NCBI GenBank assembly: GCA_977862235.1
Contig: OZ374561.1
Location: 434,001 to 498,000, forward strand
From: Dudresnaya verticillata
Lineage: Eukaryota
DNA: 64,000 nucleotides
Direction of reading: 5' to 3'
Shown: one piece after another, positions 41,324 through 60,865 of the stretch
Numbering within the stretch: the first letter of the stretch is position 1
Layout: every line of letters begins with the position of its first letter
Notes under the pieces: generated by a model
Told to the model about the DNA's origin: nothing
Seen by the model: the letters and a program-made list of their open reading frames with translations, nothing else
The model's database searches: none
Translations under genes and position numbers: made by a program

Positions 41324-42892
41324 ATGCCGGGCCTATGTTCATTCCTCGTCCTGGCCCTGTTGCAGTCCGTCTCGAATGCCTCCCTGACGTACGTGCTCCG
41401 TCAGATGCCGCACGCGCTCCGTCAGATGCCGTACGCCCCAGCCGTGCACATGCCGAACAAGACCGGCGGTACGTTAGACCAATGCCGCGAGCAGGACCAC
41501 TGCTCGGCTCGTCACAAGTGCCTCGACATCTCGACCTTCCCCAACCCGCCGCTCTGCACGGGTAGCGCCGCGTGCCGCTGCCTGCCCCCGCTTCTCACAA
41601 GGTGCGCCACCTCGGCTTCGTGCCCCCCCGGCGAGGTTTGCGCGCGCTGGTTCCGGGAGAACCAGTATGCCTATTGCTTCTCCGCGGCCTTTGAGGAGCA
41701 GTCCCTCAACTTCAACGAGGTCCCCGACGGCGCACCTGTCCCCAAGCCGACACCACCTGTTCAGGGCCTGACCTTTGATATCTGCCAGTCCCAGTCTCAG
41801 TGTCGCGGAGCCCGCACCTGCTCTTCCGACATCGGTATGCCCTGCGCTGATGAAGACGGCTGCCTTTGTTTACCACCTACTTTTCGCTTGTGCACCTCAA
41901 GCGCACCCGGCCAATGCCCGAATGGTGAGGTGTGCGCCACCTACCAGTTGAGCATACCTCCCATAACCGCTTGCTTCTCTAAAAGTGCCGTGGACAGTAC
42001 TCCGCAGTTCATTCTTTCCAAACTACGCCCGGCGCAGCCTCCTCTCCCTATGGATGCAGGGTACACCCTCGACTCCTGCAACGTCCAAACACAATGTCGT
42101 CTCGGGCGGACATGCACTCTAATCCCTGTGCAGGAGCGCAATCCGTGTGCAGACCTCATCATTGCAGTATGCAAATGCTATCCGAATACGGTCACTCCAT
42201 GCTCGAATGACAGTGACTGTACGAGGTATGAAGCATGCCGGACGGAGGCCACTAGCAAGAAGAAGATATGCATGTCTATCCGGGCATTGCGTAACCAGCC
42301 CAGCCTGGCGGCCGGCGGGGAAACTAATGCTTCCAGTACGGCGCCAAGTCCGACAAACGACATTCCAGCGCCAAGTCCGACAAACGACATTCCAGCGCCA
42401 AGTCGGGAACCAAAGGCCAGCGGACCACATAACAGCCCTGGACCGTCACCAGGAGCAGAGTCCCCTTCGGCATCGATAGTACCAACCCAGACCATTACCC
42501 CGGGGGATCAATCGCCCGGAGCGGTTCAAGTGGGTGCGACGCCTACGCCGACGACAGCAGTATGCATCGACGCACGCGCACTGGGCCATTTGAAGCCCGC
42601 CGAGAAGGTCTTCGACCGCGATATGCCCGCAAAAGTTCTTTGCGACGCTTCTGGAAGCTGCGCGACGCCAGGGCATATGGTACTGTTCCGCGGAGAGGCG
42701 ATGATGATGAAGCGGTTCTGTGCAAAAATAGGGTGCGTGGAACGCGTCTTACGGGTGAACAGCCCCCGATATCGTAGAAAGCTCACGGTGGCATCAAAGA
42801 CGGGTGGGCTAGTGTACACGTCGTTCGCGGCACGTTACGAAAGCAAGGCGGAGGAAGCAGCGTTGCAAATAGCGATTCGAGCCGGATTCTAG
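41324..42892 (+). CDS. Secreted Cys-rich protein: 3 x 10-Cys repeats, S/T/P linker, 109-aa conserved C-terminal domain (gene A)
   Basis: Signal peptide MPGLCSFLVLALLQSVSNA; repeats begin GGTLDQC, GLTFDIC and GYTLDSC; C-terminal domain at 42563..42892. Confidence 0.9.
   Translation: MPGLCSFLVLALLQSVSNASLTYVLRQMPHALRQMPYAPAVHMPNKTGGTLDQCREQDHCSARHKCLDISTFPNPPLCTGSAACRCLPPLLTRCATSASCPPGEVCARWFRENQYAYCFSAAFEEQSLNFNEVPDGAPVPKPTPPVQGLTFDICQSQSQCRGARTCSSDIGMPCADEDGCLCLPPTFRLCTSSAPGQCPNGEVCATYQLSIPPITACFSKSAVDSTPQFILSKLRPAQPPLPMDAGYTLDSCNVQTQCRLGRTCTLIPVQERNPCADLIIAVCKCYPNTVTPCSNDSDCTRYEACRTEATSKKKICMSIRALRNQPSLAAGGETNASSTAPSPTNDIPAPSPTNDIPAPSREPKASGPHNSPGPSPGAESPSASIVPTQTITPGDQSPGAVQVGATPTPTTAVCIDARALGHLKPAEKVFDRDMPAKVLCDASGSCATPGHMVLFRGEAMMMKRFCAKIGCVERVLRVNSPRYRRKLTVASKTGGLVYTSFAARYESKAEEAALQIAIRAGF
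42341..42404 (+). repeat. In-frame 27-bp tandem repeat (APSPTNDIP x2 plus a partial copy) in the linker of gene A
   Basis: gcgccaagtccgacaaacgacattcca repeated exactly. Confidence 0.9.
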
Positions 42893-44174
42893 ATTGGGAT
42901 GCGGGTGCGCAAATGGGGTCGGGTGAACATAGTTTGGAAGATCATGGCCTTTCTTCCCTGCCGGAACTTGTATTGGGCTTGAGAGGGTGCTCTTCGTAAC
43001 AGAAACATGTCAACTCCGTAAGCGGTAGATGAGTTTCGTAGGCGTAGGTGGTACGTTAGTATCGTGGACTGGAACGTTGTTGCGAAAAGAGCGAGTGTCA
43101 AATCTAAGGCTCGTCAAGCTTTGCAGCGTTGCCAAGTTGAGGGGCAGATAAGCCATGCTGAAAAGCACACGGGAGCAGGTCCATCCTCTGTAGCGCAGGG
43201 CCGGAGGGTAGCATTGGTGTGAAACGTGCTGCGTCCTGAGAAGATAGACAAAACTAAAAAAAGTTTGACATGAGCTCGAGATAAAAAAAAGGAAGGCATG
43301 CAGACTGTTGGGCCTTTCGAGATACCGCTTACCGCTGATGCAATGAGTATTGTTGTCGCACTGTGGGGCAAGGCGAAACCCGATATCGCACTACGCACTA
43401 CGGGGCAGTGGTGATCAGCACGGAACGCAAACTGTACGAGCACTACAGTATGCAAGATTTGTTCTGTCTCGAGCTACTGTAGCCAGGACCGATCGGTCAA
43501 GTTAAATGCGGACGTTCTCCCGGCTGGCATCTATTTTTCGCCCGTGCGACAAGCCAGTTATAGCCCCGCCCTTCGAACGCTCCTTCTCTAACGCTTGACA
43601 CTTGATTGACGATGCATGCAACTCAGAACAAGGGGCGATGAAATTCCAGGATCGCATTACCCTGCCGCCGACTGCACAGCAATCTGGAACCTGGGTCGGA
43701 CACCGGGGCCTGCTGACTACAGTAGGCCTGTTCCCACAGGGAGAAATGGCTCTGTCCAACAACCCGAGAGCGGCTGAAAGATGTCCCCGCCGCTCTAAGT
43801 CCTCCCGTTCGACGTGCCTTTCCCAGTTTCATCTGCTATGCCCAGCTTTCGATGAGCTTGTTGGTTGCATACGTATGAGCTTCTGAAGCGTTGTTGACTC
43901 CCATGCGAAGACATACACACACCTCCGGTTCAGGCTTCTACAAACACCGCCTGTCGGAGACGGGTGGGCGCGGTTTCTTGCTGCTGCGCACGCATTGCGC
44001 ATGCCTTGGCAAGCCTGTTCCGCCATCTTGATCACGATACTGCTCGGTGCCTTCAACAGTCGGCAATAACAGTACGTATGGTACTGTAGCCGGCGCGGAT
44101 CTTCCTGTGCCGATTCTTGTCAAAACCTCGTTTCGCTCCCATCACCCGCACCCGAAGAAGATACCACTCTCGTG

Positions 44175-46019
44175 ATGAACTGGATACACCTGCACCTCCT
44201 CGCGCTGTTACTCGCTCTTCCACCGCTCCCAAGCACGGCGTGCCGTGTTTCCGCGCCCTTCACCGCGCACACCCTCGTCTCGCTAACCCCAACCGCCCCA
44301 CAGGTCGACTTCCTCCATCGCTTGCTCACCCCAATATGCGAGCTCCTCCTACTCTCGCCGGACCAGCTCCGTCCGTCCGCCCCCGCCATGCTCATTCTCA
44401 CTCCGCCCCAATTCGCCGCCCTATCCTCCGCCGCGCGCGACTCCTCCACCCGGCACCTTGTCCCGCCGTACCGCGTGCTCTCCTCGGACATGGAGCAGAT
44501 GCTGCGCAGGATGCCGTCACAGAGTGATGAAATGCCGGCTTCGAGTCCGTACCAAGCCCGTGCCGTGGACGACGCTTTCTACAAGCGCTACCACTCGCTA
44601 CCGGCCCTGCGTGCCAAGTGGGCCTCCCTGGCGACCCGGTACGCGCATGTGACCGTGGAGTCGATAGGCAAGTCGGTGGAGGGACGCGAAATCACTCTCA
44701 TTCGCGTCGGTCGCACTCCCGGTAGCAACCCCCAGCGGGTCGTGCTCAACAGTATGCAGCACGCGCGGGAATGGATCTCGGTACACGCGGTGACGTATGT
44801 GGCAGAGGCGCTTGCGGAGTTGGCGGAGGGGACGTCCGAGGATGGTGGGTTGCTTGAAAACGTTGAGTTTTTGATTGTGCCACTGATGAACCCTGATGGG
44901 TATGTGTATACGAACACCACCTTCCGCTTCGCGAGGAAGAATCGACGCCCCACGGGTTGCACGTTCCCAGATGGAGATGGAGTGGATCTCAACCGTAATT
45001 GGAGTACGGATTACGGTGGCACCGGGTCGACTTCTAGCGACGGATGCAGTAATGTGTATATCGGTGCGGGGGCGTTCTCGGAGCCTGAGACTGCAGCGGT
45101 AAGGGATCTGATACTCTCCACGGATGGTATTAAGGTCCACTTGGATATCCATTCGTACGGGCAACTTGTGCTTCCTGCATGGGGCTTCACCACCAGCGAC
45201 CCGCCGCGAGAAGCAGAAAGTACGAAGATTGGCAAGATTCTTGCGACGGCGCTTAGGGAGGAGTACGATAAGTTGTACCGTTTTTCGAAGGCGGGAGAGT
45301 TGATATACCTTGCATCTGGAACTATGACAGACTGGGTAACTAGCCAAGGGGTTCTAAGCTACACGTTTGAACTGCGACCTAGTCTTTTTGGCGCGGCATC
45401 TTCGGGGTTCGTTTTGGAGGAGGAGGAGATTCTACCCACTTCCCGGGAAACTTTTGCAGCGGCTCAAGTGTTGCTTCGATATGCCAATAATGCTCGTTCC
45501 GTGGAATCCAGTACTTCGCCAGCCGTTAGCAACAAACCACCACCAGGGGGTGCTCAGGGTAGTAGCAGTCCTCCTCCCACAGCACCCCAACGCAGCGCAA
45601 CACCCACACCGTCGCAAACCAGCGACGTTGCAGGGCCTTTGCCGGAGACGGGTCAGGGCAGTGCGACGCCCACGCCGACAACGGCAGTATGCATCGACGC
45701 ACGCGCACTGGGCCATTTGAAGCCCGCCGAGAAGGTCTTCGACCGCGATATGCCCGCAAAAGTGCTTTGCGACGCTCTTGGAAGCTGCGCGACGCCCGGG
45801 CACATGGTACTGTTCCGCGGAGAGGCGATGATGATGAAGCGGTTCTGTGCAAAAATAGGGTGCGTGGAACGCGTCTTACGGGTGAACAGCCCCCGATATC
45901 GTAGAAAGCTCACGGTGGCATCAAAGACGGGCGGGCTAGTGTACACGTCGTTCGCGGCACGTTACGAAAGCAAGGCGGAGGAAGCAGCGTTGCGATTAGC
46001 GATTCGAGCCGGGTTCTAG
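44175..46019 (+). CDS. Secreted M14 zinc carboxypeptidase fused to the 109-aa C-terminal domain (gene B)
   Basis: Signal peptide and propeptide; QHAREW (His/Glu zinc ligands), RKNR, DLNRNW, DIHSY, FELRP; S/T/P linker; C-terminal domain at 45690..46019. Confidence 0.93.
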   Translation: MNWIHLHLLALLLALPPLPSTACRVSAPFTAHTLVSLTPTAPQVDFLHRLLTPICELLLLSPDQLRPSAPAMLILTPPQFAALSSAARDSSTRHLVPPYRVLSSDMEQMLRRMPSQSDEMPASSPYQARAVDDAFYKRYHSLPALRAKWASLATRYAHVTVESIGKSVEGREITLIRVGRTPGSNPQRVVLNSMQHAREWISVHAVTYVAEALAELAEGTSEDGGLLENVEFLIVPLMNPDGYVYTNTTFRFARKNRRPTGCTFPDGDGVDLNRNWSTDYGGTGSTSSDGCSNVYIGAGAFSEPETAAVRDLILSTDGIKVHLDIHSYGQLVLPAWGFTTSDPPREAESTKIGKILATALREEYDKLYRFSKAGELIYLASGTMTDWVTSQGVLSYTFELRPSLFGAASSGFVLEEEEILPTSRETFAAAQVLLRYANNARSVESSTSPAVSNKPPPGGAQGSSSPPPTAPQRSATPTPSQTSDVAGPLPETGQGSATPTPTTAVCIDARALGHLKPAEKVFDRDMPAKVLCDALGSCATPGHMVLFRGEAMMMKRFCAKIGCVERVLRVNSPRYRRKLTVASKTGGLVYTSFAARYESKAEEAALRLAIRAGF

Positions 46020-47480
46020 ATATACCTGATGGTTACACTGTGAGTAGAGAATGACAGCAGCTAGCGGAAAGACAGGCTCACGCTGTCGCGATGAATGTGT
46101 TGCTGTGAAGAGCTTGGGCAGAAGGTATTGGTGAAGGGAGTGAGGAAATGAGACATCGCCACTCGACATCGCGTGGCCGCGAATGCTACAGTGCATTCTG
46201 CTGTGTACGCGCCAAGTTGCTTGGGGCCCGGCCATACCTTCGCAGTGCGTCACCGGTATGCGTGCGAGCTAGTCGGTGATTGTGGCGTATTCGCCAGCTG
46301 CCGAGAGGTGCGTGGGAAATTTAATGCCGCGCTACGCCCAAATTGAAACGCAAAATCACTTCACGCTTTCGATTCAACATGTGCAGTTCGCTCGAGAAGT
46401 ACAGATCGCTTTTTCACTGCTCTCCATACGATCACGTTGTAGTCAAGTTGCGAACGAGAGGACGTTGCTGCGCCTCGCTAGTAGCAGCGGCGCCGCTGGC
46501 GTTTCTGCAAGGAGCAATGGCAGTTGCAGCATGCACTATGTCGCTTCTGTTGAGATGGCATCATTTCAGTTCATTGAGAACTTCTCTTGACCCGGGACAA
46601 GCAATATTGCGATGGTACGCGCATCACGCTGTTGTGAGACAAGTGCTTGGAGAATTACTGCAAATGGCTACCCGAGCGTTGTCGACATTCACACATCATC
46701 GGCGAGGACGGGATATCGCTCAAATAGATGGCCCTGTCTGAACACGGGCAAACGTGATGCCCCTTTCTTCCGAGCCAAGAACCCCTTTGTTTCAATCTGG
46801 TCCCGCTGTAGGTAAAGGGCCTGTCTGTGGGTTGCTGATGTTAGCATGACAGGCGTTCTTTCGAGACCGAGCGGTTAACTCCCAGCGGTGCACCAACCAA
46901 CTCTGCAACCCGTATTAGGTGGCAAGGGCCTCCGTTTGCCCAACTTGCTAAAGAGTAGAGAGCGACGATCCCGAAACCGCAGTGTCTCTTTTCGAGATGA
47001 TGTGTATTACTCTTGCTGCAGCAAGCGAAAGCTCCCACGGTGTGCTACCGTTGTCACCATAAAGGCATGGCGGTGCACATACGGTACTTGGACTTGGATT
47101 GTGCTCCTGCTGCAACCCGCACTGTGGGGCACAGCCACTTATCTTCTCCGGGCAGTCCGACTGTCTTACCCACATCGTTCTTTTGAAGGGGGACGGGATT
47201 CAGGCTGTAATGGCTGGCCCGTGTGATGGAAGATTTTTTTGGCGAGGATGGGTGGCTGCTCTCCCTAACAGGGCAACACCGTACCAATGCAGTATGCGCT
47301 GGAGAAAAGCCCCATCCAACCGCCACCTCGAATTCTCCCCACCAGCAGTGCTGCCTTGTTGCACAAATCCCAAACCGATCAAACTCCGCGCGCCGCAAGG
47401 CGGTGTTGGTGTTGTCAACAACCGTCTCGACCTCCCTCCGCTCCGCGCCAACCCACACCGATGGCGTCGCAAACCCAGCC

Positions 47481-49067
47481 ATGAACCAGCTACACCTGCT
47501 CCTCCTCGCGCTGTTGCTCGCTCTTCCACCGCTCCCAAGCACGGCGTGCCGTGTTTCCGCGCCCTTCACCGCGCACACCCTCGTCTCGCTAACCCCAACC
47601 GCCCCACAGGTCGACTTTCTCCATCGCTTGCTCACCCCAATATGCGAGCTCCTCCTACTCTCGCCGGACCAGCTCCGTCCGTCCGCCCCCGCCATGCTCA
47701 TTCTCACTCCGCCCCAATTCGCCGCCCTATCCTCCGCCGCGCGCGACTCCTCCACCCGGCACCTTGTCCCGCCGTACCGCGTGCTCTCCTCGGACATGGA
47801 GCAGATGCTGCGCAGGATGCCGTCACAGAGTGATGAAATGCCGGCTTCGAGTCCGTACCAAGCCCGTGCCGTGGACGACGCTTTCTACAAGCGCTACCAC
47901 TCGCTACCGGCCCTGCGTGCCAAGTGGGCCTCCCTGGCGACCCGGTACGCGCATGTGACCGTGGAGTCGATAGGCAAGTCGGTGGAGGGACGCGAAATCA
48001 CTCTCATTCGCGTCGGTCGCACTCCCGGTAGCAACCCCCAGCGGGTCGTGCTCAACGGTATGCAGCACGCGCGGGAATGGATCTCGGTACACGCGGTGAC
48101 GTATGTGGCAGAGGCGCTTGCGGAGTTGGCGGAGGGGACGTCCGAGGATGGTGGGTTGCTTGAAAACGTTGAGTTTTTGATTGTGCCACTGATGAACCCT
48201 GATGGGTATGTGTATACGAACACCACCTTCCGCTTCGCGAGGAAGAACCGACGCCCCTCGGGTTGCAGGCTCCCAGGTAGAGACGGGGTGGACCTCAACC
48301 GTAATTGGAGTACGGATTACGGTGGCACCGGGTCGACCTCCCGCTACGAATGCAGTGATGTGTATATCGGTGCGGGGGCGTTCTCGGAGCCTGAGACTGC
48401 AGCGGTAAGGGATCTGATACTCTCCACGGATGGTATTAAGGCGCACGTGGATATCCATTCGTACGGGCAACTTGTGCTTCCTGCATGGGGCTACACCACC
48501 AGCGACCCGCCGCGGGAGGGCGAAAGCACGAAGATAGGTTTCGTGCTCGAGAGGGTCCTTACCGAGGTGCACAACAAGCGGTACAACTTTGGCAAACCCG
48601 GTGATCTGTTGTACCCTGCCTCTGGCACGATGACAGACTGGGTGACGAGCCAAGGGATTCTAAGCTATACATTTGAGCTCCGACCATCGCTTGTAGAGTC
48701 AGCGTCTGCTTTGGACAGCTTCGTTTTGGAAGAGCAGGAGATTCTACCCACTTCCAAGGAAACCTTCGCGGCTGTTCGTGTTTTGCTCCGATTTGCCAGC
48801 AACCCTGACTCTGTGGAGAGCGTGTCTCCTCTCCCACCCCCTGTCGCTGGTAGTGCGGGTAATGGCGTGGATGTTGGTGTGATAGTTGGCATCGCTGTCG
48901 GGGCATTCGCTGCGTTGATGGCGGCTATTGGGGTCGTTGCATTATGTTTCTGCAGTGTATGTTATTCAACAACGAAAGTCAAGCCGGTCAGTGAAGACGC
49001 TGACGCAGAAAATTATCCTACGGAGATCGCTGTACAGAGAAACCCGTATTCATTGAAGGATCCATAG
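47481..49067 (+). CDS. M14 zinc carboxypeptidase with a C-terminal transmembrane anchor (gene C)
   Basis: Same catalytic motifs as gene B; start at 47481 by alignment with B; TM helix VGVIVGIAVGAFAALMAAIGVVALCFC and a short cytosolic tail containing NPY. Confidence 0.93.
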   Translation: MNQLHLLLLALLLALPPLPSTACRVSAPFTAHTLVSLTPTAPQVDFLHRLLTPICELLLLSPDQLRPSAPAMLILTPPQFAALSSAARDSSTRHLVPPYRVLSSDMEQMLRRMPSQSDEMPASSPYQARAVDDAFYKRYHSLPALRAKWASLATRYAHVTVESIGKSVEGREITLIRVGRTPGSNPQRVVLNGMQHAREWISVHAVTYVAEALAELAEGTSEDGGLLENVEFLIVPLMNPDGYVYTNTTFRFARKNRRPSGCRLPGRDGVDLNRNWSTDYGGTGSTSRYECSDVYIGAGAFSEPETAAVRDLILSTDGIKAHVDIHSYGQLVLPAWGYTTSDPPREGESTKIGFVLERVLTEVHNKRYNFGKPGDLLYPASGTMTDWVTSQGILSYTFELRPSLVESASALDSFVLEEQEILPTSKETFAAVRVLLRFASNPDSVESVSPLPPPVAGSAGNGVDVGVIVGIAVGAFAALMAAIGVVALCFCSVCYSTTKVKPVSEDADAENYPTEIAVQRNPYSLKDP

Positions 49068-50155
49068 ACATAACTCAAGGAAGGTTGTCGAAGCATCGTG
49101 GAAGACTCTTAACAGGTATTGGGAGCATGGCATCATTGAAAGGACTCGTATCGTCCTGACGTCACGACCACCATGAATGGCCAACCTCAAGCAGTGCCAA
49201 GCGGGATGACTAGGTAAGCCTCGTAGAGCAAACACCAGCGAAAGATCATATTTATTCAGGATTGCGTGCGGCCGCACGAGTCAGAGCTATGTAAATCTAT
49301 GACACATGATTTATATTGTTTTGATGGATTATGTTATGAAGTTTTAGCAAGTAGCTCTTCCAACGTACTTCGGCGGGTGAAAAGTTCCTTCCAGATTCTA
49401 GAAGAGCTCAAGCTCAGATACTGTTGAAGAATGAAAAGGAGCAAATGCTGACAAATGCTATCGTCTTCGAGTTTGATTTTGGTATTATCAGTTGGCTGCT
49501 GAGTGCTGCCAGGTTACGAGTTGTTCATAGCGTTCCTACAATGCACAGATGTGGTACAGAGGGATTTTTCAAAGAAGTTGAGAGAGTCTGAACTACAGAC
49601 TTTCTAGTCCTGCAAAAACGTCGCGCTCGCTTTGTTCCCAGGACCCAATGGCTTCTTGTGCCTGGTCAAATCCCATACGTGTAGCGGTGATTGAGTCCAG
49701 CGTTAAACGAAAATCACTTTTCTTTCGGGAAATCGCGTGATTGCTATCATACTCTGTCTGGAAGGGCGTCCGATGCTGGCACAAACGTTCCTGGTTTAGC
49801 TGTTGCCGTCGGAAGCTGTGCCGATGGTGTTCGGGGGCGTTCAGGATATGACGGCTTGAGCTGTTCTGGCTGTTCTGGACCATATCGCATACTGTAGCTG
49901 CCACTTTGTTGAAGACGCACCTTGGTGAGTCCTGGCATGGTGGGCGTGAGGTTCGCGGTTTGCTGCGTGGTAGCCTTCACGAAGCTGTGCGGTAGAGCAG
50001 GGTGCCCCAAAGGTGTCAATCGCGAGGCAAGAAAGTTCTGGGAGTGCAAATGCGCGAAAACTACCAAAAAATCAAGAAAAATCGAGGAAATCCCAGAATC
50101 CCTGAGGGGCTTCTTTATAAACCACGGGGATTCGGGAACTCCCATCCAATCGGAG

Positions 50156-50229
50156 GCCTCCATAGCTCAGTTGGTTAGAGCATGGTGCTAATAACGCCAG
50201 GGTCGCAGGTTCGAGCCCTGCTGGGGGTA
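50156..50229 (+). tRNA. tRNA-Ile (anticodon AAT)
   Basis: Acceptor stem GCCTCCA/TGGGGGT; D arm TAGCTCAGTTGGTTAGAGC; anticodon arm TGGTG-CTAATAA-CGCCA; T arm GCAGG-TTCGAGC-CCTGC; TATAAA about 35-40 bp upstream; oligo-T terminator near 50250. Confidence 0.95.
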
Positions 50230-51292
50230 TTCCACGTCGGAAGTTTACCTTTTTTTCTCCTTCATGGCTTCAATCGATCAAAATCTCTTTTGAAAACAGT
50301 GCACTGCAGAGGAATGTTCGTTTCACTGCTGTTCTTGGCGGTTGTTTTGCCTTTCGGCGGCAGAAAGTTATCTTCTATTGCTGGTGAATCATGCTAGCCA
50401 TTGCACCTTGCTGTGGTGGTGCCCACGCTAAGGAGGAATGATACCGCACTCTCATCTGCTCAACTTCATCATGGTGCATCATGCAAGAAGCATCACGCGC
50501 AAATTTCGGCTGAAGCCATGTTGACTCACACAGCTGCAATAGAGCAATGCAAAACGCCCTTTCATAATAGCAAAAAAAGAAAAAAGAAACGCAAAGACTG
50601 AGAAGCAGAAGCAAGTCAAACATATTCCGTGGGAATCGATAATCTCCACCAGGACGCGATGCTGTGTCTAATTTGTCTCAGGTAGCAACATAAGCCTTTT
50701 CCTTTTATGCATTCTTTCTTCCGTGACTCTATCGCTTTGATTTTGGAGTTCTTCTCGAATCTGTTGCACAAAATATTGAGCGGAATAGCACTCCCAGACC
50801 CTGCCCCGCGGCATGTAGTTTACAGGCAGACAGCATGGCGGTGGCCATGTTGTGGGCCCATTCCTTTCCTTTATGCTAATTACGTGGCTGGATGTACTCT
50901 GACAAGAAAAAGGACAGCTCTTGAACTACTTGTTATCCCGGTTTCTGCTCTCACGTCCACGACAATCACCAATCATTGATGCCTAGCCACTTGCTTTCGA
51001 ACTACACAGTCAGCTATCAGTTTCCGTGTTTACGGGGCACAGCATCGTTCTACGCAAAAAGATTACTCTCCCTAGACGCAGACGATTTTGCAAACCGGTT
51101 CGTGTTCTCCACGACATAGCTCGGTATCCACATCTTACCATATATAAACACTAGGGGTGCGCGACGATTTCCAGAACGTGATAGCTCAACAGGAACCCCA
51201 CTTTCTACCCGTCGTTCCAAAAACAAATCGCCTACTTTGTCTACAACTCTCCCCCAACGAACCCTTTCCCCCTTACCCACCCGTGTATCGGT

Positions 51293-54200
51293 ATGCCGTG
51301 CACACGGCTGCGCAGCATACTAGCTGTGCCTCTGCTGCTACGTGTTTTTTGTGCAGCACACGCAGAGCCAAGCTTTCTAACCTTCCCACCTCTCAACGCC
51401 AATGTGGATGGTTTTGCACTCCCCTTTTTGAATCATGAAGCAATTCCCGCCGCTTCTGGTCTTACTCTGGCACCATGTACTGAATTATCAGGATGTGCTG
51501 CAGAAAGACAATGTCTTATGAACACTGCCAAGGGCCCTGTTCCTTGCGTGGATGGAGAAGGATTTTGCTCATGCCGCCCTACAGCACTTCAGAAATGTAC
51601 AGACACCAAGGAGTGTGACTTGGGGGACCAGTGTGTATCTGTCGGTACGACAGCAATCTGTGTCTCTGCAATTGTCGCAGCGTACAACCAGAACTTGAAG
51701 TCTGTTGGAACAGACGTAGAATTCAAGTTCGGAGGGCTCACTTTTGATCCCTGTTCCTCCTCAGATACATGCGATGCTGGACGTCAGTGTACTCTTCTTT
51801 CTACTGACAACACAAAAGAAGCATGTACTGAAGGTCAGAAGTGCTACTGCTTTCCCGATGAGATCAATGATTGTTTGAAAACTTCGCAATGTGAGCTGGG
51901 TGAAGTTTGTGCAGTCATGAAAGATGTGCCAACCCCTTTTTGCGTGTCGAAGGTTGCGGAAATACATGTTCTCACCGTCAGCGAGATGAAGGCCATATCT
52001 GGGCAAGGTGATAGTGCGCCTGAAGCTTCACCAGAGAGCTTGGTTCCGCCTCGGAAACTGCGAGGGGTTACCCTAGATTCTTGCTTTACGGACCCCCATT
52101 GCTTGGGCGGTCGATCATGCAAATACAAGGAGACCCCATGCGCAGGAAGAAAGGGTTGCTACTGTGAACCAGAAAGCTTTAAACCTTGTGAGTCAAGCTT
52201 TGATTGTGAGACCCGTGAACTCTGTACTACCTACACCAAAGACCCAGAGTCCAATCCATTTTGTGCTTCTGCGGTAGTCATTGGGTTTAGTACGGATTTC
52301 AAGGAGGTCAAAACAGGTTCTGGAAGACCAGACTCTAGTTCTTCAACCGGGTTGACATCATACCCTTGCTCAGATGACTCTATTTGCAAGTCGGGTAGGA
52401 AGTGTCGCATTAACTCTGCTCAAGGGTTTGTCGATTGCGCAGGTAACACTGGATGTATGTGCTTACCCAATATTCCCACGGCTTGTTCGAGCACGAATGA
52501 TTGCCTTGATGGAGAAGTTTGCTCTGTAGTTCTTGACAAGGGGCAAACACACCGTGTTTGTGTTTCTGCGGATGTCGAAGCCTCGTCTCCAGAGGTTGTT
52601 GAAGTTTCCAGGGATCCAAAGCATTTTCCAAAGGTCCCAGAAGAGGATGGCCAAAAGGGCTCTGAGCCAGGTGGTGTGACCTTTGATCCATGCAAGGACT
52701 CGGACGACTGTATCGCCCCTCGAAAATGTGAATCCTCTTCCTCACTCGGATCTTGCAATGGCCAGGATGGTTGCTACTGCGTCCCCCCAGAACCCAAGCT
52801 TTGCAATGGCATGAATGAATGTTCTGTGCGAGAAGTGTGTGGAAAGCGACAAAATGAGACCACATATGCTTGCGTGTCTCCTTATTTTGCCACTGGGGCA
52901 AACTTCGAGCTAATCAAGACTGGTACACCTCAGGAGAAAAGCAAAGCTGCTGGCCTGACATTCTTCCTTTGCAGCAGCGACTCAGACTGCAAGGGAGCCC
53001 GCCAATGCAAGTCGCTTTCTGCTGAGGCGCAGCCTACTGATTGCAAGGATGGGGATGTATGTTACTGCCTGCCCACCGGGACAGCCCCGTCTTGTAAGAC
53101 ACATTCTGACTGCGATCAAGGAGCGGTCTGCACAGAATTGGTGAGGGAAGAAGGGGCTCCACCGTTTTTACCAAATGAAACGTGTATTGCTTCTGATGCT
53201 GTGGCGGGGATAAGATTCTTTAAGATACTAGATGACGATTCAGGCAAGCCAGGCGCGGAACAAGAACCTGACGATGACAACAGCCCCGTACTCGACGGCG
53301 TGACATTCGACCCGTGTAAGAAATCGAAGGAATGTGCTGGTGTCCGTACATGTTTGACTGCAGCTTCCAAGGCCCCTTGTACGGGGAATAAGACTTGCAT
53401 ATGTTATCCGCCGAAGCCCAAGACATGTGCATACAGCACGGACTGCGAACCGAGAGAGACATGCGCATTACTGAAGGGTGAGACAGACTACTCATGCATC
53501 TCAACAATCTATGCCACGTCGAACCCCACAGTTACACTTGTTGCCAGTGACAAACCAAGGACGAATACGAGTACGTCAGTTGGCTTGACTATGTATCCCT
53601 GCAAGACTAACGATACTTGCATTGGTGGGCGTACCTGCCAATCGATATCTGATAACGGAACAACGGCATCATGCACAAAGGCAGTGGGCTGTTACTGTCT
53701 CCCACAAACGAAGCCCCCGCCTTGCAAGGAGCACTCAGATTGCGTGAAAGGAGAAGTCTGCTCTTCTCCTACAGCGAAGGGTGTCGTGCTTGGAGATTTG
53801 CCGGAACAAGTTTGCGTAGCTGCAGATGTGGAGGCGGCAAATCCTTTCTTGACTGCAATCCCGAAGAAAGAAGTCCCTGTAGCACCAGACAGCACATCCA
53901 GTGGCGTCACTCTTGACCAATGTGGGAAGAACGAAGACTGTGCAGCAACTAGAACTTGTGTGGTTGGTCTTCAGAGTCAACTGCCCTGCAATGGCAAAGA
54001 GAATTGTCTCTGTTGGCCAAGCCAGCTCCGGTCATGTGTGTCGCACACACAATGCCAACCACAGGAAGTGTGTGCTACCGGCATAAGCGCGGGAAAGCAG
54101 TACTGCGTATCTGTTGTTGTTGAAGGCTTTTCTACAGATATTCAGAAGATTACGACCGGACCTCCAAAGGTTCAGCATAGTGAATCCCTTGGTTTAACAG

Positions 54201-55027
54201 GGTGGCCATGTTCAGGGAACGAGAATGTCTGCAAGGGTGAGCGCCTATGTGTCGGTGAAGATGGCGATAAGCTAGTCGCATGTGCCAATAGGGATTCTTG
54301 TTATTGCTATCCCAAAGAGAATTCTACATGTTCAAAAGATGTGGAGTGTCAGAACGGCGAGGTTTGTGCAAAGGTGGTGGCCGAAGATAGGCCTTCAGCC
54401 ATTCCAGACCAGTTGTGCATTGCAACTGATGTCGAAGCTTCTCTGGAATTCATCCAAGGAGTATCAGCAGGGAACAAAGCAGTGGTTAATGCTACGGTCA
54501 CTCCGACGCCATCAGTATGCCAAGTACCAACTCCAACATCATCCAGGTCGCCAAAAGTTTCAGAACTGACAGAGCCTACAGCGTCACACGTTCCTGAGAC
54601 GTCCCCGGAAAGCTCACTGGAACCGACCGAGTCACCATCCCCGACTGTCTCACCGACTCCATCTAGACCAGCTTCCAGCGGTACCACGGACGGAGTCTGT
54701 ATTGACGCTAGGGCGCTTGAGCACATTCCCAGAGATGAGCTGGTTTTTGAGAAGCATTCGATGGCTGAGGTGCTTTGCGATATCAACAACAGCTGCGCAA
54801 CTCCTGGTCATATTGTCACGTTCAAGAATAAGCCAATGATGATGAAGTCGTACTGCGCATTGGCTTCTTGTGAGAAGAAAGAGATGCTTGTGAACAGTCC
54901 AAAGTTCAAGGTTCAGCTTCGGGTTAACTCGAACACTGAGGGGTTGAAATACACTGCATTTGCAGCACGTTATGAGACGATTGCAGAAGAAGCTGTGATG
55001 AGAGCTGCTGTTCACGTGGGATTGTAG
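51293..55027 (+). CDS. Large secreted Cys-rich protein: 10 x 10-Cys repeats, S/T/P linker, 109-aa C-terminal domain (gene D)
   Basis: 1244-aa ORF with signal peptide; ten repeats starting G[LV]TxxxC; C-terminal domain at 54698..55027. Confidence 0.92.
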   Translation: MPCTRLRSILAVPLLLRVFCAAHAEPSFLTFPPLNANVDGFALPFLNHEAIPAASGLTLAPCTELSGCAAERQCLMNTAKGPVPCVDGEGFCSCRPTALQKCTDTKECDLGDQCVSVGTTAICVSAIVAAYNQNLKSVGTDVEFKFGGLTFDPCSSSDTCDAGRQCTLLSTDNTKEACTEGQKCYCFPDEINDCLKTSQCELGEVCAVMKDVPTPFCVSKVAEIHVLTVSEMKAISGQGDSAPEASPESLVPPRKLRGVTLDSCFTDPHCLGGRSCKYKETPCAGRKGCYCEPESFKPCESSFDCETRELCTTYTKDPESNPFCASAVVIGFSTDFKEVKTGSGRPDSSSSTGLTSYPCSDDSICKSGRKCRINSAQGFVDCAGNTGCMCLPNIPTACSSTNDCLDGEVCSVVLDKGQTHRVCVSADVEASSPEVVEVSRDPKHFPKVPEEDGQKGSEPGGVTFDPCKDSDDCIAPRKCESSSSLGSCNGQDGCYCVPPEPKLCNGMNECSVREVCGKRQNETTYACVSPYFATGANFELIKTGTPQEKSKAAGLTFFLCSSDSDCKGARQCKSLSAEAQPTDCKDGDVCYCLPTGTAPSCKTHSDCDQGAVCTELVREEGAPPFLPNETCIASDAVAGIRFFKILDDDSGKPGAEQEPDDDNSPVLDGVTFDPCKKSKECAGVRTCLTAASKAPCTGNKTCICYPPKPKTCAYSTDCEPRETCALLKGETDYSCISTIYATSNPTVTLVASDKPRTNTSTSVGLTMYPCKTNDTCIGGRTCQSISDNGTTASCTKAVGCYCLPQTKPPPCKEHSDCVKGEVCSSPTAKGVVLGDLPEQVCVAADVEAANPFLTAIPKKEVPVAPDSTSSGVTLDQCGKNEDCAATRTCVVGLQSQLPCNGKENCLCWPSQLRSCVSHTQCQPQEVCATGISAGKQYCVSVVVEGFSTDIQKITTGPPKVQHSESLGLTGWPCSGNENVCKGERLCVGEDGDKLVACANRDSCYCYPKENSTCSKDVECQNGEVCAKVVAEDRPSAIPDQLCIATDVEASLEFIQGVSAGNKAVVNATVTPTPSVCQVPTPTSSRSPKVSELTEPTASHVPETSPESSLEPTESPSPTVSPTPSRPASSGTTDGVCIDARALEHIPRDELVFEKHSMAEVLCDINNSCATPGHIVTFKNKPMMMKSYCALASCEKKEMLVNSPKFKVQLRVNSNTEGLKYTAFAARYETIAEEAVMRAAVHVGL

Positions 55028-55649
55028 TCTTATGGGCATTTATGTTTTGAAACGGTAATACAAGTAAAATGTCTTTCACATAGAGTTCCCAGGTTAACTC
55101 TTGCCTTCAGCTATGCATTGAAGCACGGGCTATTGATGAAGATTGCTCCATGTGCTTATGGGGCTGACAAGGCAACTGGACCTTGTAGAAATGTCACTGA
55201 AGAAATAGAATCTTGGCAGTTTTGATCGAGAGGCAACAGTGCGAAGTCTTAACACAGAAGCACTGCACAGTTGCGGAGTAGGGAAAATGTTTCTTCTGCG
55301 ACGAACACAAATATTCCGAATCTGAGACAAAAGCGGCTGTCCGGAACATCTCAGGACCAGGTTGGCAGCAGAGCGGAGGAAGTTGTAAACAACGGGCCAT
55401 GAGACTTCCCATTTGTGATTCTGTCTCGAGTCCAGTAGCAAAATCAAAACACCATCGTCGTCAAGCTTTGCCTGAGACAACCAGTGGTTGGGAGCTCCTA
55501 CGGAAGAGGGAAGTAACCGGCGCCAGTGTTCATGTTGACCCTTGCTGCAAAGAGCACGGCCTTTGCCCTCTCACAAGGAACTGAAAGTTTGTTTCAACAT
55601 ACAATATGCATGTACGCTGATAGGGTTCGATAAAAAAAACTACCCGACA

Positions 55650-56903
55650 CTATAGTCCTGCCCGTACAGCCGTGACTAAAACGCGCTCTTCCAACTTGGT
55701 CTCGAAACGGGCAGCAAAGGCAGTAAACACCAGTCCTTCTGTCCGCGTGCTTACACGCATTTTCCTTTGATAACTAGGGCTATTCACAAACATCACTCTA
55801 CGCCGACAGCTCGCAAAACTGCAGTAGCTTCGCATCATCATCGCAGAGCCGTTGTAAATAACCACATGACCAGGCGTGGCACAGCTCCCAGATACATCAC
55901 AGAGCACCTGCGCACTTGGGTGCCGTTCAAACACCAATCGTTCCCTCGGGAGATGCCTGAGAAGCTCCACGTCCACGCAAACACCGCCAGCCGTGTTCGC
56001 GTTCACGCCCTGGGTGGGCATAGTCTCGGGTTGGTTCACGGACGGCGTCGAGCTAGGAGAAGCGCTAGGTTGGACGGATGCAGCGGCGGACCCCGAGTCG
56101 CCCGGCCGTTGTGTGTCGTGGTCACCCGGAGTGAAACTTGGTGGGAGTTGCGTCGGGGCATCGGAAGTGGCGGGCGGAATTTTTGATGGGGAGGCCGGGG
56201 TGCCCGCCAAGCCTGGAGACGGAGTTGAGAATGACATAGAGGGGATGGACTGTGGCGGGCCCGGTTCGGTAGGTGGGTCGCCGGGCGGGATAACAAGCGG
56301 AGCGTACAGCGCTGCAGTTGTGGATACACATGTCGGGTCGGGTAGACCTGGTACTGAGGAGCAGGTTTCACCAGAAGGGCATGCAGTGGTCGCACTGCAG
56401 GGCGGTGGGGAGGAAAGAAGGCAGACGCAAGGCGGTGATGCGCAGGCAGTCAGTGGTGGGGAGGGTGGATAGGCGGTGCAGAGATGAGTAGAGGGGCAGG
56501 GGGAAGTGGACGAGCATGTGTCGAGGGATAGTGGTGGAGTGTTAGGAGCGGGCGGTGGCGGGGGTGGCGAGAGCGGGGTGTAGGTTGGGCGGTAGTACGC
56601 GGCGAGGGTGGATATGCACAGCGGGGGCGGGAAGATGGGTGTTTGGAAGCAGTGTGTCCCGGCCGGGCAGGTCGTGGTGGCATCGCACGGTTCCGGGATT
56701 GGGTTGAAGCAGAAGCAGGCGGGCGGGATGCATGGGCGTATGGTGGAGTTAGTGAGCAAGGAGACGCAGGTGAGAGGAGGGGTACAGTTGGAATTCGACG
56801 AGCAGGGAGACAGCGGCAGGCCTGGCGGGGGTGCTTGGGCGAGGGCGGGGAGAAGGAAGAGGAGAACGAAGAGGAGAAGGAAGGCGAGGACTTGAGGCGG
56901 CAT
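55650..56903 (-). CDS. Secreted Pro/Cys-rich protein: 2 x 10-Cys repeats, linker, 109-aa C-terminal domain (gene E)
   Basis: Signal MPPQVLAFLLLFVLLFLLPALA; repeats GLPLSPC and PLSLDTC; C-terminal domain at 55650..55979. Confidence 0.9.
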   Translation of the reverse strand: MPPQVLAFLLLFVLLFLLPALAQAPPPGLPLSPCSSNSNCTPPLTCVSLLTNSTIRPCIPPACFCFNPIPEPCDATTTCPAGTHCFQTPIFPPPLCISTLAAYYRPTYTPLSPPPPPPAPNTPPLSLDTCSSTSPCPSTHLCTAYPPSPPLTACASPPCVCLLSSPPPCSATTACPSGETCSSVPGLPDPTCVSTTAALYAPLVIPPGDPPTEPGPPQSIPSMSFSTPSPGLAGTPASPSKIPPATSDAPTQLPPSFTPGDHDTQRPGDSGSAAASVQPSASPSSTPSVNQPETMPTQGVNANTAGGVCVDVELLRHLPRERLVFERHPSAQVLCDVSGSCATPGHVVIYNGSAMMMRSYCSFASCRRRVMFVNSPSYQRKMRVSTRTEGLVFTAFAARFETKLEERVLVTAVRAGL

Positions 56904-59428
56904 CGTGTGGGCACTGGTGCGGAGTGCGCGCCACAGCGGGCGGCACGAGGTCCAACGGAAGGTTATATGTCAAAGAGGTGCGGGCGGGAATGTCGCAAAT
57001 CGCGCTTGTTTCACTTCGTGAGGTGAAGCGGAAGCGTGAATGCACGGGCGCTGGCTGGTGCTTTGCGCTTGGACTGTGAAGGCGCTTGGCACGAAACGAA
57101 ACGGATCCGGGAAGGGCCGCATGACGGAGCATCAAAGCGGAAGGATCCTCCTGCATACAGTACAGTTGATGTTACTCGTGCAACGACCCAATAATCCGCA
57201 ACTCACAATCAGGTGGAACGGCAGATATGTTCTCGGCCTTCAGCCGTGACCGCTATAGTTGCGGTTGTCGTGCCCAGGCGAATATTCCAAAAACAGGTCC
57301 GCACACTGAGTTGTCTACTGCAGCTAGACTGTCGATGCCGGCACTCGAGAATCCAGAACCAGTCTCGGTCACGCCTGTTACCCTCTTTTTGCACAGCACG
57401 TTTTTTAATTGGTTTAAACCTACCGAAATGGCTTCTTAGTAACGCATCACCAAGGAATGGTTCTGAAAAGGCTGCTTCTTCTTTCTTCATTGGTTGAATT
57501 ATTAATGCTTCATAACTACTACGCTGTTCCATTGGTTGCAGACAAGTGAGGTACCCAGCTCTCTAACTGTAGCTAACAGAAACGTTACAGTCATGACCTG
57601 CACGTGCCGGTGTAATCTCCAAGAACTGGTAGACATCGACACTTATTATTCGATACACAGGTATTTCAAGCACGAGTTTCAGCCAACTCGAACCACTTTC
57701 AAGTTGAAACTCTTATCTTATCCACTGCGCTGATAAACTGCCTCTCATGGCTGCTTGGACTATGCAGTAAGAACTATTGAGAGTGCTGCTTGCAACAAAG
57801 TTTGCACAAGGTCATGGACAAGGAGAAAGGAACCCGGCCATCAATATTGTGTGTATCCCGCACCCTGCCATTTGAAACCGAGTGTGGGAGCGTCAGGCAG
57901 TCTCACAGAGCAGTGGAGACTACTTTGACAAAGCATGAGCACCTTGCACCAAGTTGTAAGCGCAACCAACTGCGCAGAGTCACAACCCCCCAGAAATGCG
58001 TTTCGCGCCATGCCACTCAACTGTCGAAACAGTTGCTCTTCGCCAGTTCAATAAATTTTCAGCCGTCTTTGTTGGTGGCACGAATAGACGTGAGTTGAAA
58101 TACAATTTTCTGGGACCGTCGTCCATTTTATTGTGATGGCACATATGTAGTAGTTGCTCGCCCAGCTGCCAAGCGGATATGCAACCACCTTTCTACACCG
58201 CTAGTCTAAATCACAAGATTCCGTAAACTGGTTTCAGAAATGGAGATGCGCACCACTATTTATTTGCAAACTCGTAAAACGCAAAGTGGCATAATTGTGA
58301 GCACAGGTAATGTCATCTCGACAACATAATATTAATCTGGCAGAATTCCCACAAGCCTGTAGCCATAGATAAATAGAATGGAAGATTCTAAAACACAAGG
58401 TACAGATCCTTGGCGACCGTTAACATTTCAATCATGCTCCGATCGGATAAATTGCCCTCGGAAAGCCGAACTTCTTTTTCGCTGGCTTCTGTTGTACTGT
58501 ATGTTCTCAGGCCTCGTAAGGTTAAGCGCGAAAAAAAACGAGGAAACAATGCAATACCCAAAGACTGTGCGAGCTCTAGGATGCCCTAGAGATGCATGGC
58601 TTTGAGCTGAAAAGAGGTGAATCTAATGTCGAAGACGATTGTATGCGAATATAAATTATGCGACGTGAGCTGCGTGGTTGAGGCAACTGCCCCAAGGGGT
58701 AGCAACAGATGACACAGCAGGAAGGACGGACCACTTTCCGTCTGTTGCTGTTGCCGTTCGGGAGCCCTTTCTCTCAACTCATTGGACGATGCTTTTCAAC
58801 TTGTAGAAGGTGTCAAGCCCAACAAAGCACGCATTGAAAGCAGGAAGAAGACTACGCAAGGAAAAGAGGTGGTTACGATACGTGTTGCGGGGCTCGCGGC
58901 ACCCTACAATGTTCCAGTCTGACTGAGGAACACGTATTGTTGCACTGTACTTGTGATGTTGTACTTTTTCCAGCTTTAACGAGCTCTCGTACTCAGAACT
59001 TTCGTTACTTCACACATCCAGAACAGATATACTGGCGAATCGGCCAATCACCGTTCTGGATGCTCAATGTGTTGACACTGAGATCAATCATCTGTCGCGC
59101 ATCGCTGGTGCTATCCGGTGGTGCATTGAAATCATATTGACCCACGTTGAGCCTGCGGAACGCACGTTCGTGAAACGCAGATCCCTGGAAAGTCGGCGAG
59201 GTGGCCATTTTGGAGGCATAGATACCCTGCACATAGTAGACACGAAGGTGTCAGTGGCACCTCGTTAACATCTCATGAAGTTCCCCATCTTCTCCTGGAG
59301 CGACTCAACTTCGCTTGCAGGTCTTCAGACCATCTGCTTTTCACTACACAGCCGCGATTGAAGCCCACTTGGAATACTTCAACACCACAGAGTCCCCGCT
59401 AGTGCCTTGTCTCAAGTCTGCCAACGCC

Positions 59429-60865
59429 ATGAAGGTCAAACTAATCCAGCCTGGCCTTCTACTCAGTCTTTCTTTCCTCCTTTTTTCTGCACAGTTCGCA
59501 TCCGCGTTTCCAGCTGTGATCAGGGATACTTTCCGATTTCCACTTCCATCTACACTAAACCGTGAAGTACACCTCGCCACTGCGATCCGTTCGTTGCAGA
59601 ATCGCCATGCGAACGCACAAAATACCCATGTTTCTGTTCGACAAGGCGCGGATCTGGACTCTTCAGCCAACCAGCCAGTCAAGAGTGTAACACTTGATTT
59701 CTGCCAGCAGGACTCGGATTGTGTTGACCCTCTAACCTGCCAGTCCATCGCACCGGATTCTGAGGACATAAGTACCCGTGTACCGTGCATAGACGACTCC
59801 ATTGAGTGTTTCTGCTTCCCTGCGAAAGTTGTTACCTGCACTGCTTCTGATGACTGCCCTGAGCGCGAACTATGCGCGAGTCTTGGGAACCTGGACCCGT
59901 TCTGCATGTCCATCGTCATTCAAGGCTACCAACGAGACCAATTCAAGCATATCGACCCTCCACGTCCAGATACCAGCACTTCACATGGAACAAACCTTTA
60001 TCCTTGTGATTCGAACAAGGACTGCCTCGGAACTCGCGAGTGCATATTCTTACTCGGTCCTTTGAACGCTGAGTTGAAATGTCGGGTCCCAAAGAAGCAG
60101 CCTTGTTTTTGCGCACCAACTGAAAACTCAAAATGCACGAAACATGAACAATGCGACGCAGGCGAGATTTGTGGAAAGAATAGCAAGAACAACAAGAATT
60201 GTATTTCTGCCGACACTGTCGCAACCATTTCAGATCTCAGCCCTGTGGACGGGAGGAAGACAAAGCCGCCGCCTTCTAAAAAGCCTGCATCTTCTCCGAA
60301 GCCAACCATTTCTGCAGCCTTCACACCATCTCCATCTCCATCCAAACAGCCTCCTCGAACCCCCCCAAGTTCATCTCCAAAGGCTTCGCAGAGTACTGAC
60401 GCTGAAACCCCAGAGTCTACTCCTGCCCCATCTGCATCGTCTAGACCAGCACTAGCCTCTCAACCCCCATCGACGTTGGGTCCTTCACCCACTCCAGTTG
60501 TTCTAGAGACGCCAGAGGAGGTCCAAGAATCAGTATGTGTCGATGCTACGGCACTACAACATTTGAGCCCTGAGCAGCTCGTTTTCGAAAAGCATGCATA
60601 TGCTCGGGTGCTTTGTGATACTAATATGAGCTGTGCAACTAAAGGTCACATGGTTGTCTTCAAGGGGTCATCTATGATGATGAAAACCTACTGTCAGGTT
60701 GCAGGTTGTGAGGAGATGGCAATGCACGTGAACAGTCCAAAACGTGCAAGGGGATTGCGAATATCTTCAAAGACTAAAGGGCTTGAATATACGGCCTTTG
60801 CCGCAAGGCATGAGACAAGAGCTGAAGAAACATTTTTACGAACGGCAATTAGAGCAGGGTTCTAG
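59429..60865 (+). CDS. Secreted Cys-rich protein: 2 x 10-Cys repeats, linker, 109-aa C-terminal domain (gene F)
   Basis: ATG at 59429 gives signal MKVKLIQPGLLLSLSFLLFSAQFASA; repeats SVTLDFC and GTNLYPC; C-terminal domain at 60536..60865. Confidence 0.9.
   Translation: MKVKLIQPGLLLSLSFLLFSAQFASAFPAVIRDTFRFPLPSTLNREVHLATAIRSLQNRHANAQNTHVSVRQGADLDSSANQPVKSVTLDFCQQDSDCVDPLTCQSIAPDSEDISTRVPCIDDSIECFCFPAKVVTCTASDDCPERELCASLGNLDPFCMSIVIQGYQRDQFKHIDPPRPDTSTSHGTNLYPCDSNKDCLGTRECIFLLGPLNAELKCRVPKKQPCFCAPTENSKCTKHEQCDAGEICGKNSKNNKNCISADTVATISDLSPVDGRKTKPPPSKKPASSPKPTISAAFTPSPSPSKQPPRTPPSSSPKASQSTDAETPESTPAPSASSRPALASQPPSTLGPSPTPVVLETPEEVQESVCVDATALQHLSPEQLVFEKHAYARVLCDTNMSCATKGHMVVFKGSSMMMKTYCQVAGCEEMAMHVNSPKRARGLRISSKTKGLEYTAFAARHETRAEETFLRTAIRAGF

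What the first reader, a model, noticed from the sequence alone, without database searches (positions are those of the whole stretch)
41324..60865. Candidate new system: a portable 109-aa C-terminal domain resembling a miniaturised Hint/Hedgehog autoprocessing module on five secreted proteins
Seen: five genes end in a domain of exactly 330 nt including the stop, with no indels (42563-42892, 45690-46019, 54698-55027, 55650-55979 on the minus strand, 60536-60865). Consensus: V|C[IV]DxxxLxHxxxxxxVFxxxxxAxVLCDxxxSCAT[PK]GHxVx[FY]xxxxMMMxx[FY]CxxxxCxxxxxxVNSPxxxxxxx[VI]xxxTxGLx[YF]TxFAARxExxxEExxxxxA[IV]xxG[FL]*. In every case the first Cys directly follows a Ser/Thr/Pro-rich linker, and the N-terminal passenger has a signal peptide. 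Established: Hint/Hog domains sit C-terminally on secreted proteins, start with a nucleophilic Cys, carry a block-B TxxH motif, and Hog domains end in a helical sterol-recognition region. Inference: the first Cys, ATPGH, VF[DE][RK] (cf. hedgehog FLDRD), VNSP...YTSFAA (cf. hedgehog YAP.T...ASCYA) and the terminal amphipathic helix occur in the Hog order but in a much shorter domain. This suggests self-cleavage at V|C and possibly attachment of the passenger to a lipid, sterol or wall polymer. The resemblance was judged by eye.
Basis: partly seen in the sequence, partly recalled or inferred. Interest (0 to 1): 0.9.

Follow-up and report, generated by a model that had tools for sequence, protein, structure and literature searches.

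The report
Miniature Hedgehog-like self-cleaving tail in seaweeds
Many likely secreted red-seaweed proteins end in the same 109-residue module, which is predicted to fold like a shrunken version of the self-cutting part of the Hedgehog protein and likely cuts itself off and passes its cargo to a still unknown cell-surface molecule; no such activity has been tested.

The parts
41324..42892 (+). Gene 1 (522 aa): hydrophobic N-terminus, 10-Cys repeats (two matched by pattern, a third visible), S/T/P linker, mini-Hint tail
42563..42892 (+). Mini-Hint domain copy 1 (109 aa + TAG)
42516..42894 (+). Cassette (end of linker + domain) 95% identical to 45642-46021; the identity ends 2 nt after the stop
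44175..46019 (+). Gene 2 (614 aa): hydrophobic N-terminus, M14 zinc carboxypeptidase, S/T/P linker, mini-Hint tail; likely a recent chimera
44616..45458 (+). Peptidase_M14 domain (PF00246, E 3e-67), with HxxE, NR, H and E motifs present
45690..46019 (+). Mini-Hint domain copy 2 (97% nt identity to copy 1; 5 synonymous and 4 non-synonymous differences)
47481..49067 (+). M14 paralogue of gene 2 (92% nt identity over 1.3 kb) that ends in a hydrophobic, likely transmembrane, helix and a short tail instead of the domain
48882..48938 (+). Likely transmembrane helix of the paralogue (19-residue KD mean 2.55)
51293..55027 (+). Gene 3 (1244 aa): hydrophobic N-terminus, ten 10-Cys repeats (51458-54424), S/T/P linker, mini-Hint tail
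54698..55027 (+). Mini-Hint domain copy 3, the folded copy: C1 at 54698, T35 at 54800, H38 at 54809; core 1-89, helix 95-106
55650..56903 (-). Gene 4 (417 aa): hydrophobic N-terminus, Pro-rich 10-Cys repeat(s), S/T/P linker, mini-Hint tail
55650..55979 (-). Mini-Hint domain copy 4
59429..60865 (+). Gene 5 (478 aa from the second Met): hydrophobic N-terminus, two 10-Cys repeats, S/T/P linker, mini-Hint tail
60536..60865 (+). Mini-Hint domain copy 5

Best explanation
The domain is a portable C-terminal tag of a florideophyte red-algal protein family; it is predicted to be a reduced Hint (Hedgehog/intein) fold that likely cuts itself off at [V/I]|Cys1 and likely transfers the secreted passenger to a cell-surface or wall acceptor. 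Shown: the family, its strictly C-terminal position, the conservation of C1/T35/H38, recent shuffling onto a peptidase, and the exchange with a membrane helix in a paralogue. Predicted: the Hint fold (residues 1-89), with 1 on Hint C1 and 87 on the intein terminal Asn/Hedgehog C400. Inferred: in the secretory pathway C27-C33 and C53-C58 form disulfides and leave C1 free. T35 and H38 drive the N-to-S acyl shift, giving a passenger-thioester. The conserved extension after the core (A89-A90-R91 ... E97-E98 ... G108) sits where Hog domains carry their adduct-recognition region and would present a hydroxyl or amine acceptor. The Hedgehog D303/C400 relay is not used. My odds: Hint-derived 0.9, self-cleavage 0.65, transfer to an acceptor 0.45, cholesterol by the Hedgehog route about 0.1.
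Against: No sequence-level link to Hint: no Hint family among the 25 Pfam families shown (of 82) for 140 members at E<=10, none for the 4 domain copies or 65 long homologues, no Hint chain in PDB sequence searches, and hhalign against 13 bacterial Hints gave probability 0.7%. Z stays under 8, the range the tool warns may be a common arrangement. Position 87 is A157/S18/T14/V12/G4/P1 of 206, and C143A abolishes Hedgehog autoprocessing and DTT cleavage (PMC12054796 passages). Residue -1 is Val 102, Ile 36, Thr 10 and Gly only 11 of 201; a cited paper's title says beta-branched residues there attenuate PRP8 intein splicing (reference list of PMC4031507). One Chondrus member has Asp for H38 (P0036). 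The conservation counts come from the best-scoring 201 proteins, so they are biased upward; most of the 586 representatives were not seen.
Confidence: 0.45

Rival explanations
1. Self-cleavage with plain hydrolysis: the tail holds or sorts the precursor (wall or membrane), and a slow or triggered N-S shift releases the passenger with a free C-terminus.
For: C1 and TxxH are kept while both Hedgehog transfer residues are missing. Hedgehog D303A still cleaves with DTT but cannot complete cholesteroylation (PMC9163320). Val/Ile at -1 could make cleavage slow. B-type BILs cleave without ligating.
Against: It does not explain the near-invariant E97 (206/206), E98 (204), R91 (187) and G108 (201) after the core, at the adduct-recognition position. 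The paralogue swap points to anchoring rather than release, though the swap can be read either way.
Confidence: 0.2
2. A catalytically dead, Hint-derived binding or sorting module: it tethers intact passengers to sulfated galactans, to a receptor, or through an intermolecular disulfide made by its odd Cys.
For: The domain is basic (mean net +4.3; 5.4 K/R in residues 68-91; pI 7.8-9.9), and a basic Chondrus cuticle protein binds carrageenan. C400 and D303 equivalents are missing and the -1 residue is unfavourable. It replaces a membrane helix in a paralogue.
Against: The domain starts exactly at an invariant Cys, and T35 and H38 are among the 13 most conserved columns. A pure binding module need not be single-copy and strictly terminal (201/201 and 197/201).
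Confidence: 0.25
3. The Hint resemblance is a model artefact or convergence; the domain is an unrelated disulfide-rich module.
Confidence: 0.08

Closest known systems
Hedgehog C-terminal autoprocessing (Hog = Hint + SRR) domain, PF01079, PDB 1at0/6tyy
   Same: C-terminal on secreted precursors; begins with Cys; TxxH; predicted fold aligns over 86-87 residues from C258 to 402/403; conserved extension after the core
   Different: Core about 89 versus 145 residues; four extra conserved Cys; no Cys at C400; no D303 found; -1 is Val/Ile rather than Gly; tail about 20 residues with one helix instead of a helix-loop-helix SRR with HWY; no Pfam match
Canonical non-Hh Hog proteins of red algae (Burglin 2008, PMC2362128; Cyanidiales Kelch-Hog, PMC9812998, PMC13353863; Hint expansion in Bostrychia, bioRxiv 2025.02.11.637652)
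   Same: Same phylum, signal peptide + Cys-rich or other passenger + T/P-rich linker + Hint; motif-J Cys replaced; function unknown; the likely ancestor (inference)
   Different: Those were found by BLAST or domain annotation as hedgehog-like, and Burglin reports motifs J and K in the untruncated ones. This family is missed by Pfam, and its named records carry no Hint label. I could not compare the sequences directly.
Inteins and bacterial intein-like (BIL) domains (gp41-1 6riz, RecA 2imz, DnaE 4kl5, BIL 2lwy/6tmm)
   Same: Predicted fold; Z tied within 1 of Hedgehog; residue 87 on the terminal residue
   Different: No His-Asn or +1 nucleophile (T86, A87, F88), so no splicing; not an insertion in a host protein; 36 or more residues shorter than the shortest intact chains listed (125-127); the shortest eukaryotic intein in PMC5784728 is 123 aa
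Vint domain (PDB 8r2c)
   Different: Vint follows VWA-Vwaint and is thought to be intracellular (PMC2362128); no VWA here

Membership tests
Hint superfamily | Hint beta fold with both termini in register | tested here: met
Hint superfamily | N-terminal nucleophile Cys/Ser at position 1 | tested here: met
   C1 in 206/206; aligned range starts at 1 on C258 and intein residue 1
Hint superfamily | Block B TxxH | tested here: met
   T35 206/206, H38 205/206. The register on block B is inferred from strand order and a non-significant hhalign.
Hint superfamily | C1, Thr and His within H-bonding distance; C1 thiol free | not testable with these tools
   Model coordinates are not returned; the odd Cys count (5 in 191/201) is indirect
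Hint superfamily | Detectable sequence similarity to Hint profiles | tested here: not met
   No Pfam Hint-type hit shown, no PDB sequence hit, hhalign probability 0.7%
Hint superfamily | Autocatalytic N-S acyl shift and cleavage | not testable with these tools
   Needs biochemistry
Hog (Hedgehog-type) | C-terminal position on a secreted precursor | tested here: met
   Terminal in 197/201; hydrophobic N-terminus in 119/201 (many look N-terminally partial) and 5/5 in the window
Hog (Hedgehog-type) | C400/C143 (SCYA) Cys | tested here: not met
   Position 87 is Cys in 0 of 206; register from range ends. Canonical red-algal Hogs also lack it.
Hog (Hedgehog-type) | General base D303/D46 | tested here: inconclusive
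Hog (Hedgehog-type) | SRR/ARR with motifs K and L (helix-loop-helix, HWY) | tested here: not met
   Only about 20 residues follow the core, with one helix at 95-106; no conserved H-W-Y among the conserved columns; SRR description from PMC9163320
Hog (Hedgehog-type) | Sterol transfer | not testable with these tools
   Needs biochemistry
Intein / A-type BIL | C-terminal His-Asn and +1 nucleophile | tested here: not met
   Positions 86-88 are T189, A157 and F167 of 206
Vint | VWA-Vwaint-Hint architecture, not secreted | tested here: not met
   No VWA among the Pfam families shown for 140 + 65 proteins; hydrophobic N-termini

The most novel reading that the evidence does not exclude
A fourth eukaryotic Hint type and the smallest Hint core so far (about 89 residues, disulfide-braced): a red-seaweed self-ligating tag that covalently fixes dozens of secreted Cys-rich proteins and enzymes to the sulfated-galactan wall, the cuticle or a membrane lipid by a chemistry that needs neither of Hedgehog's D303/C400 residues, in place of a membrane anchor.
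Probability: 0.4. Interest if true: 0.9.

Novelty: new variant of a known kind. Interest (0 to 1): 0.74.

Why it matters
It would add an unrecognised family to the Hint superfamily, about a third smaller than intact Hint domains of known structure and invisible to Pfam. It would give a testable function to hundreds of 'hypothetical' red-algal proteins. It bears on two open questions: what non-animal Hog-type domains attach their passengers to, and how proteins are fixed into the highly insoluble red-algal wall and cuticle. A 12-kDa thioester-forming tag that works in an oxidising compartment and accepts Val/Ile at -1 could also be a useful protein-ligation tool.

Tried and rejected
Sequence routes to Hint all failed: Pfam, PDB HMM and hhalign against 13 bacterial Hint domains from 401 sampled genomes (2 of 15 loci left out, one without a clear Hint start and one a large intein). 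A degenerate DNA pattern meant to fetch Hedgehog-type Hints gave no viral hit and 4 unrelated bacterial loci, so no Hog profile could be built and canonical red-algal Hogs were not compared. ESM Atlas gave only sub-0.8 hits, and its own model of P0056 is poor (pLDDT 0.36). Foldseek on viral models had no E<=0.001, with some intein/Hint-labelled rows among weak hits. No relative was found in viral contigs or prokaryote genomes; one was found on a 1.6-kb metagenome contig. These pattern scans reach close relatives only. A single-sequence search with gene 1's passenger found nothing. A repeat profile found 11 proteins: 5 end in the domain, 6 end without it, and none carries a precomputed Pfam Hint label. 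The 10-Cys repeat model (pLDDT 85) gave only weak Dickkopf/colipase/knottin rows (E>=0.3); its wide VIA search did not run. Covariation gave a few plausible pairs (6-85, 22-64, 14-71) but nothing on the invariant residues. No RNA holder was listed, and no whole genome is held. A tree of 26 domains (5 window, 19 named, 2 nearest unnamed) separates Gracilariales from the rest but does not resolve the window copies. Complex prediction was not used: no binding claim is made. Rejected: the FLDRD match; splicing; a VWD relation (score 0.79, chance level).

Full report
Observation. The five segments are exactly as described: 330 nt, TAG stop, 109 ungapped columns, 40 of them invariant. A six-frame scan finds no sixth copy. 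Each follows Val at the end of a 43-60% S/T/P linker, and each ORF starts with a hydrophobic stretch (a proxy, not SignalP). Copies 1 and 2 are 97% identical in DNA. All other pairs are near saturation at silent sites (pS 0.79-0.92) with pN 0.28-0.35, so the protein is under constraint. The window is an intron-poor eukaryote (SNF2, DnaJ-like, STT3-like and ligase-like long ORFs; the labels other than SNF2, M14 and M50 are recalled by eye). Its homologues point to a florideophyte red alga.

Family. A profile of the five copies found 166 proteins among 7,990 candidates and 586, 527 and 341 representatives at E<=1e-3, 1e-10 and 1e-30 among 1.84 billion: a sharply bounded family. I saw 201 of these proteins. 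Of the 120 listed, 18 carry a name: Chondrus 5, Gracilaria domingensis 4, Gracilariopsis 3, Agarophyton 2, and 4 from one transcriptome of which one was confirmed as Eucheuma. One more Chondrus record came from 20 further look-ups. None is labelled Hint. The range beyond Gigartinales and Gracilariales is not established. The domain is single-copy in 201 of 201 and terminal in 197 of 201; it is 109 aa in 135; the 30 residues before it are on average 79% S/T/P/G/D/E/N/Q/A. 151 of 201 carry a 70-aa, 10-Cys repeat, 2 of 140 carry Spondin_N, and several have only His/Asp-rich or low-complexity passengers. Of 11 proteins found with the repeat profile, 6 lack the domain, so repeat and tail are separable.

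Portability shown in the window. Gene 2 is 92% identical over 1.3 kb to the neighbouring M14 carboxypeptidase gene at 47481-49067, and 95% identical over its last 381 nt to gene 1. The paralogue ends in a hydrophobic 19-residue helix and a short tail. No M14 fusion showed among the homologues scanned. The simplest reading, an inference, is that gene 1's tail recently replaced a membrane anchor.

Catalytic anatomy. In 206 sequences, C1, D28, C33, T35, M49, C53, C58, V65, N66 and E97 are invariant; C27 and H38 are in 205 and E98 in 204. Hedgehog needs C258, T326 and H329, and D303A keeps DTT cleavage but not cholesteroylation (PMC9163320, section 8 and passages). Here C1 and TxxH are kept. hhalign against 13 bacterial Hints is not significant (0.7%), but its best local match sets T35-H38 on block B. 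The domain has 5 Cys in 191 of 201. C27 and C33 flank a D-x-N-G-S turn and C53 and C58 bound a loop that tolerates insertions, so I infer two disulfides and a free C1; this was not observed. Against Hedgehog chemistry: position 87 is never Cys (A157, S18, T14, V12, G4, P1), while C143A blocks Hedgehog processing and DTT cleavage (PMC12054796, abstract and passages). Canonical red-algal Hogs also lack this Cys (PMC2362128 passages), and B-type BILs cleave N-terminally without the C-terminal motif (PMC7765530 passage). Residue -1 is Val, Ile or Thr in 148 of 201, which a cited title links to weaker splicing in one intein. The tail is one amphipathic helix (95-106; mean hydrophobic moment 0.46) with conserved R91, E97, E98 and G108, much shorter than an SRR. 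The domain is basic (net +4.3). All these counts come from the best-scoring members and overstate conservation.

Mechanism. The most likely reading is a secreted precursor, an N-to-S shift at [V/I]|C1 and capture of the thioester by a surface acceptor presented by the C-terminal extension (0.45). Rivals are cleavage with plain hydrolysis (0.2), an inactive Hint-derived binding or sorting module (0.25) and a false fold match (0.08). Cholesterol is plentiful on the Chondrus surface, but with neither D303 nor C400 evident I put Hedgehog-type cholesteroylation near 0.1.

What is known. Red-algal Hog proteins are described (PMC2362128: passages and section 16; PMC9812998, PMC13353863, PMC11827588 and bioRxiv 2025.02.11.637652: passages), found there by BLAST or domain annotation, with function unknown. 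Ten full-text searches showed no paper describing a short, Pfam-invisible Hint-like tail. The library lacks most subscription papers. The Chondrus cuticle proteomics preprint (parts 1-3 of 6 read, whole text searched) has no 'Hint', 'intein' or 'hedgehog', and reports unidentified low-mass bands. The cut-off domain would be about 12 kDa, which is only a lead; the preprint's supplements were not seen. PMC5784728, PMC7664689, PMC8229266 and PMC4031507 were seen as passages only. Earlier scan notes had nothing by sequence or by specific words; four notes concern canonical Hogs.

Verdict. The feature is real. It works, most likely, like a Hog autoprocessing tail, but it is not a member of Hog, intein, BIL or Vint. 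It is a new, reduced variant of the Hint superfamily, so far known only from florideophyte red algae. The fold is predicted and the activity untested. Interest 0.74.

Noticed in passing
window 51458-54424 and genes 1, 4, 5: An unnamed 70-80 aa repeat with 10 invariant Cys, in 151 of 201 homologues and up to 10 copies per protein. The model has pLDDT 85; only weak Dickkopf/colipase/knottin (fold) and scytovirin (E 0.91) resemblances.
   Followed up: partly
window 44175-45486 vs 47481-48798: The two M14 carboxypeptidase genes are 99-100% identical over about 600 nt, falling to about 75% near the 3' end of the peptidase domain; this suggests recent duplication or gene conversion.
   Followed up: partly
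P0036 (Chondrus): A natural member with Asp in place of H38 and Pro in place of R91, while close Chondrus paralogues (P0024, P0066) keep H38; a possible inactive control.
   Followed up: no
P0090, P0098, P0180, P0184: Family members whose passengers are short His/Asp-rich low-complexity peptides after a hydrophobic N-terminus; possibly metal- or mineral-binding.
   Followed up: no
window 17917-19437 (+): A 506-aa ORF with a hydrophobic N-terminus that looks by eye like a secreted FAD-linked (berberine-bridge-type) oxidase; label recalled, not scanned.
   Followed up: no
window 62789-63868 (-): M50 peptidase with PDZ domain (RseP-like), E 2e-52; the ORF probably extends upstream.
   Followed up: no
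L006/L020 (G024:C1:1523934-1524584): A bacterial 909-aa ORF with at least two tandem Hint domains separated by a few residues, plus the end of another upstream.
   Followed up: no
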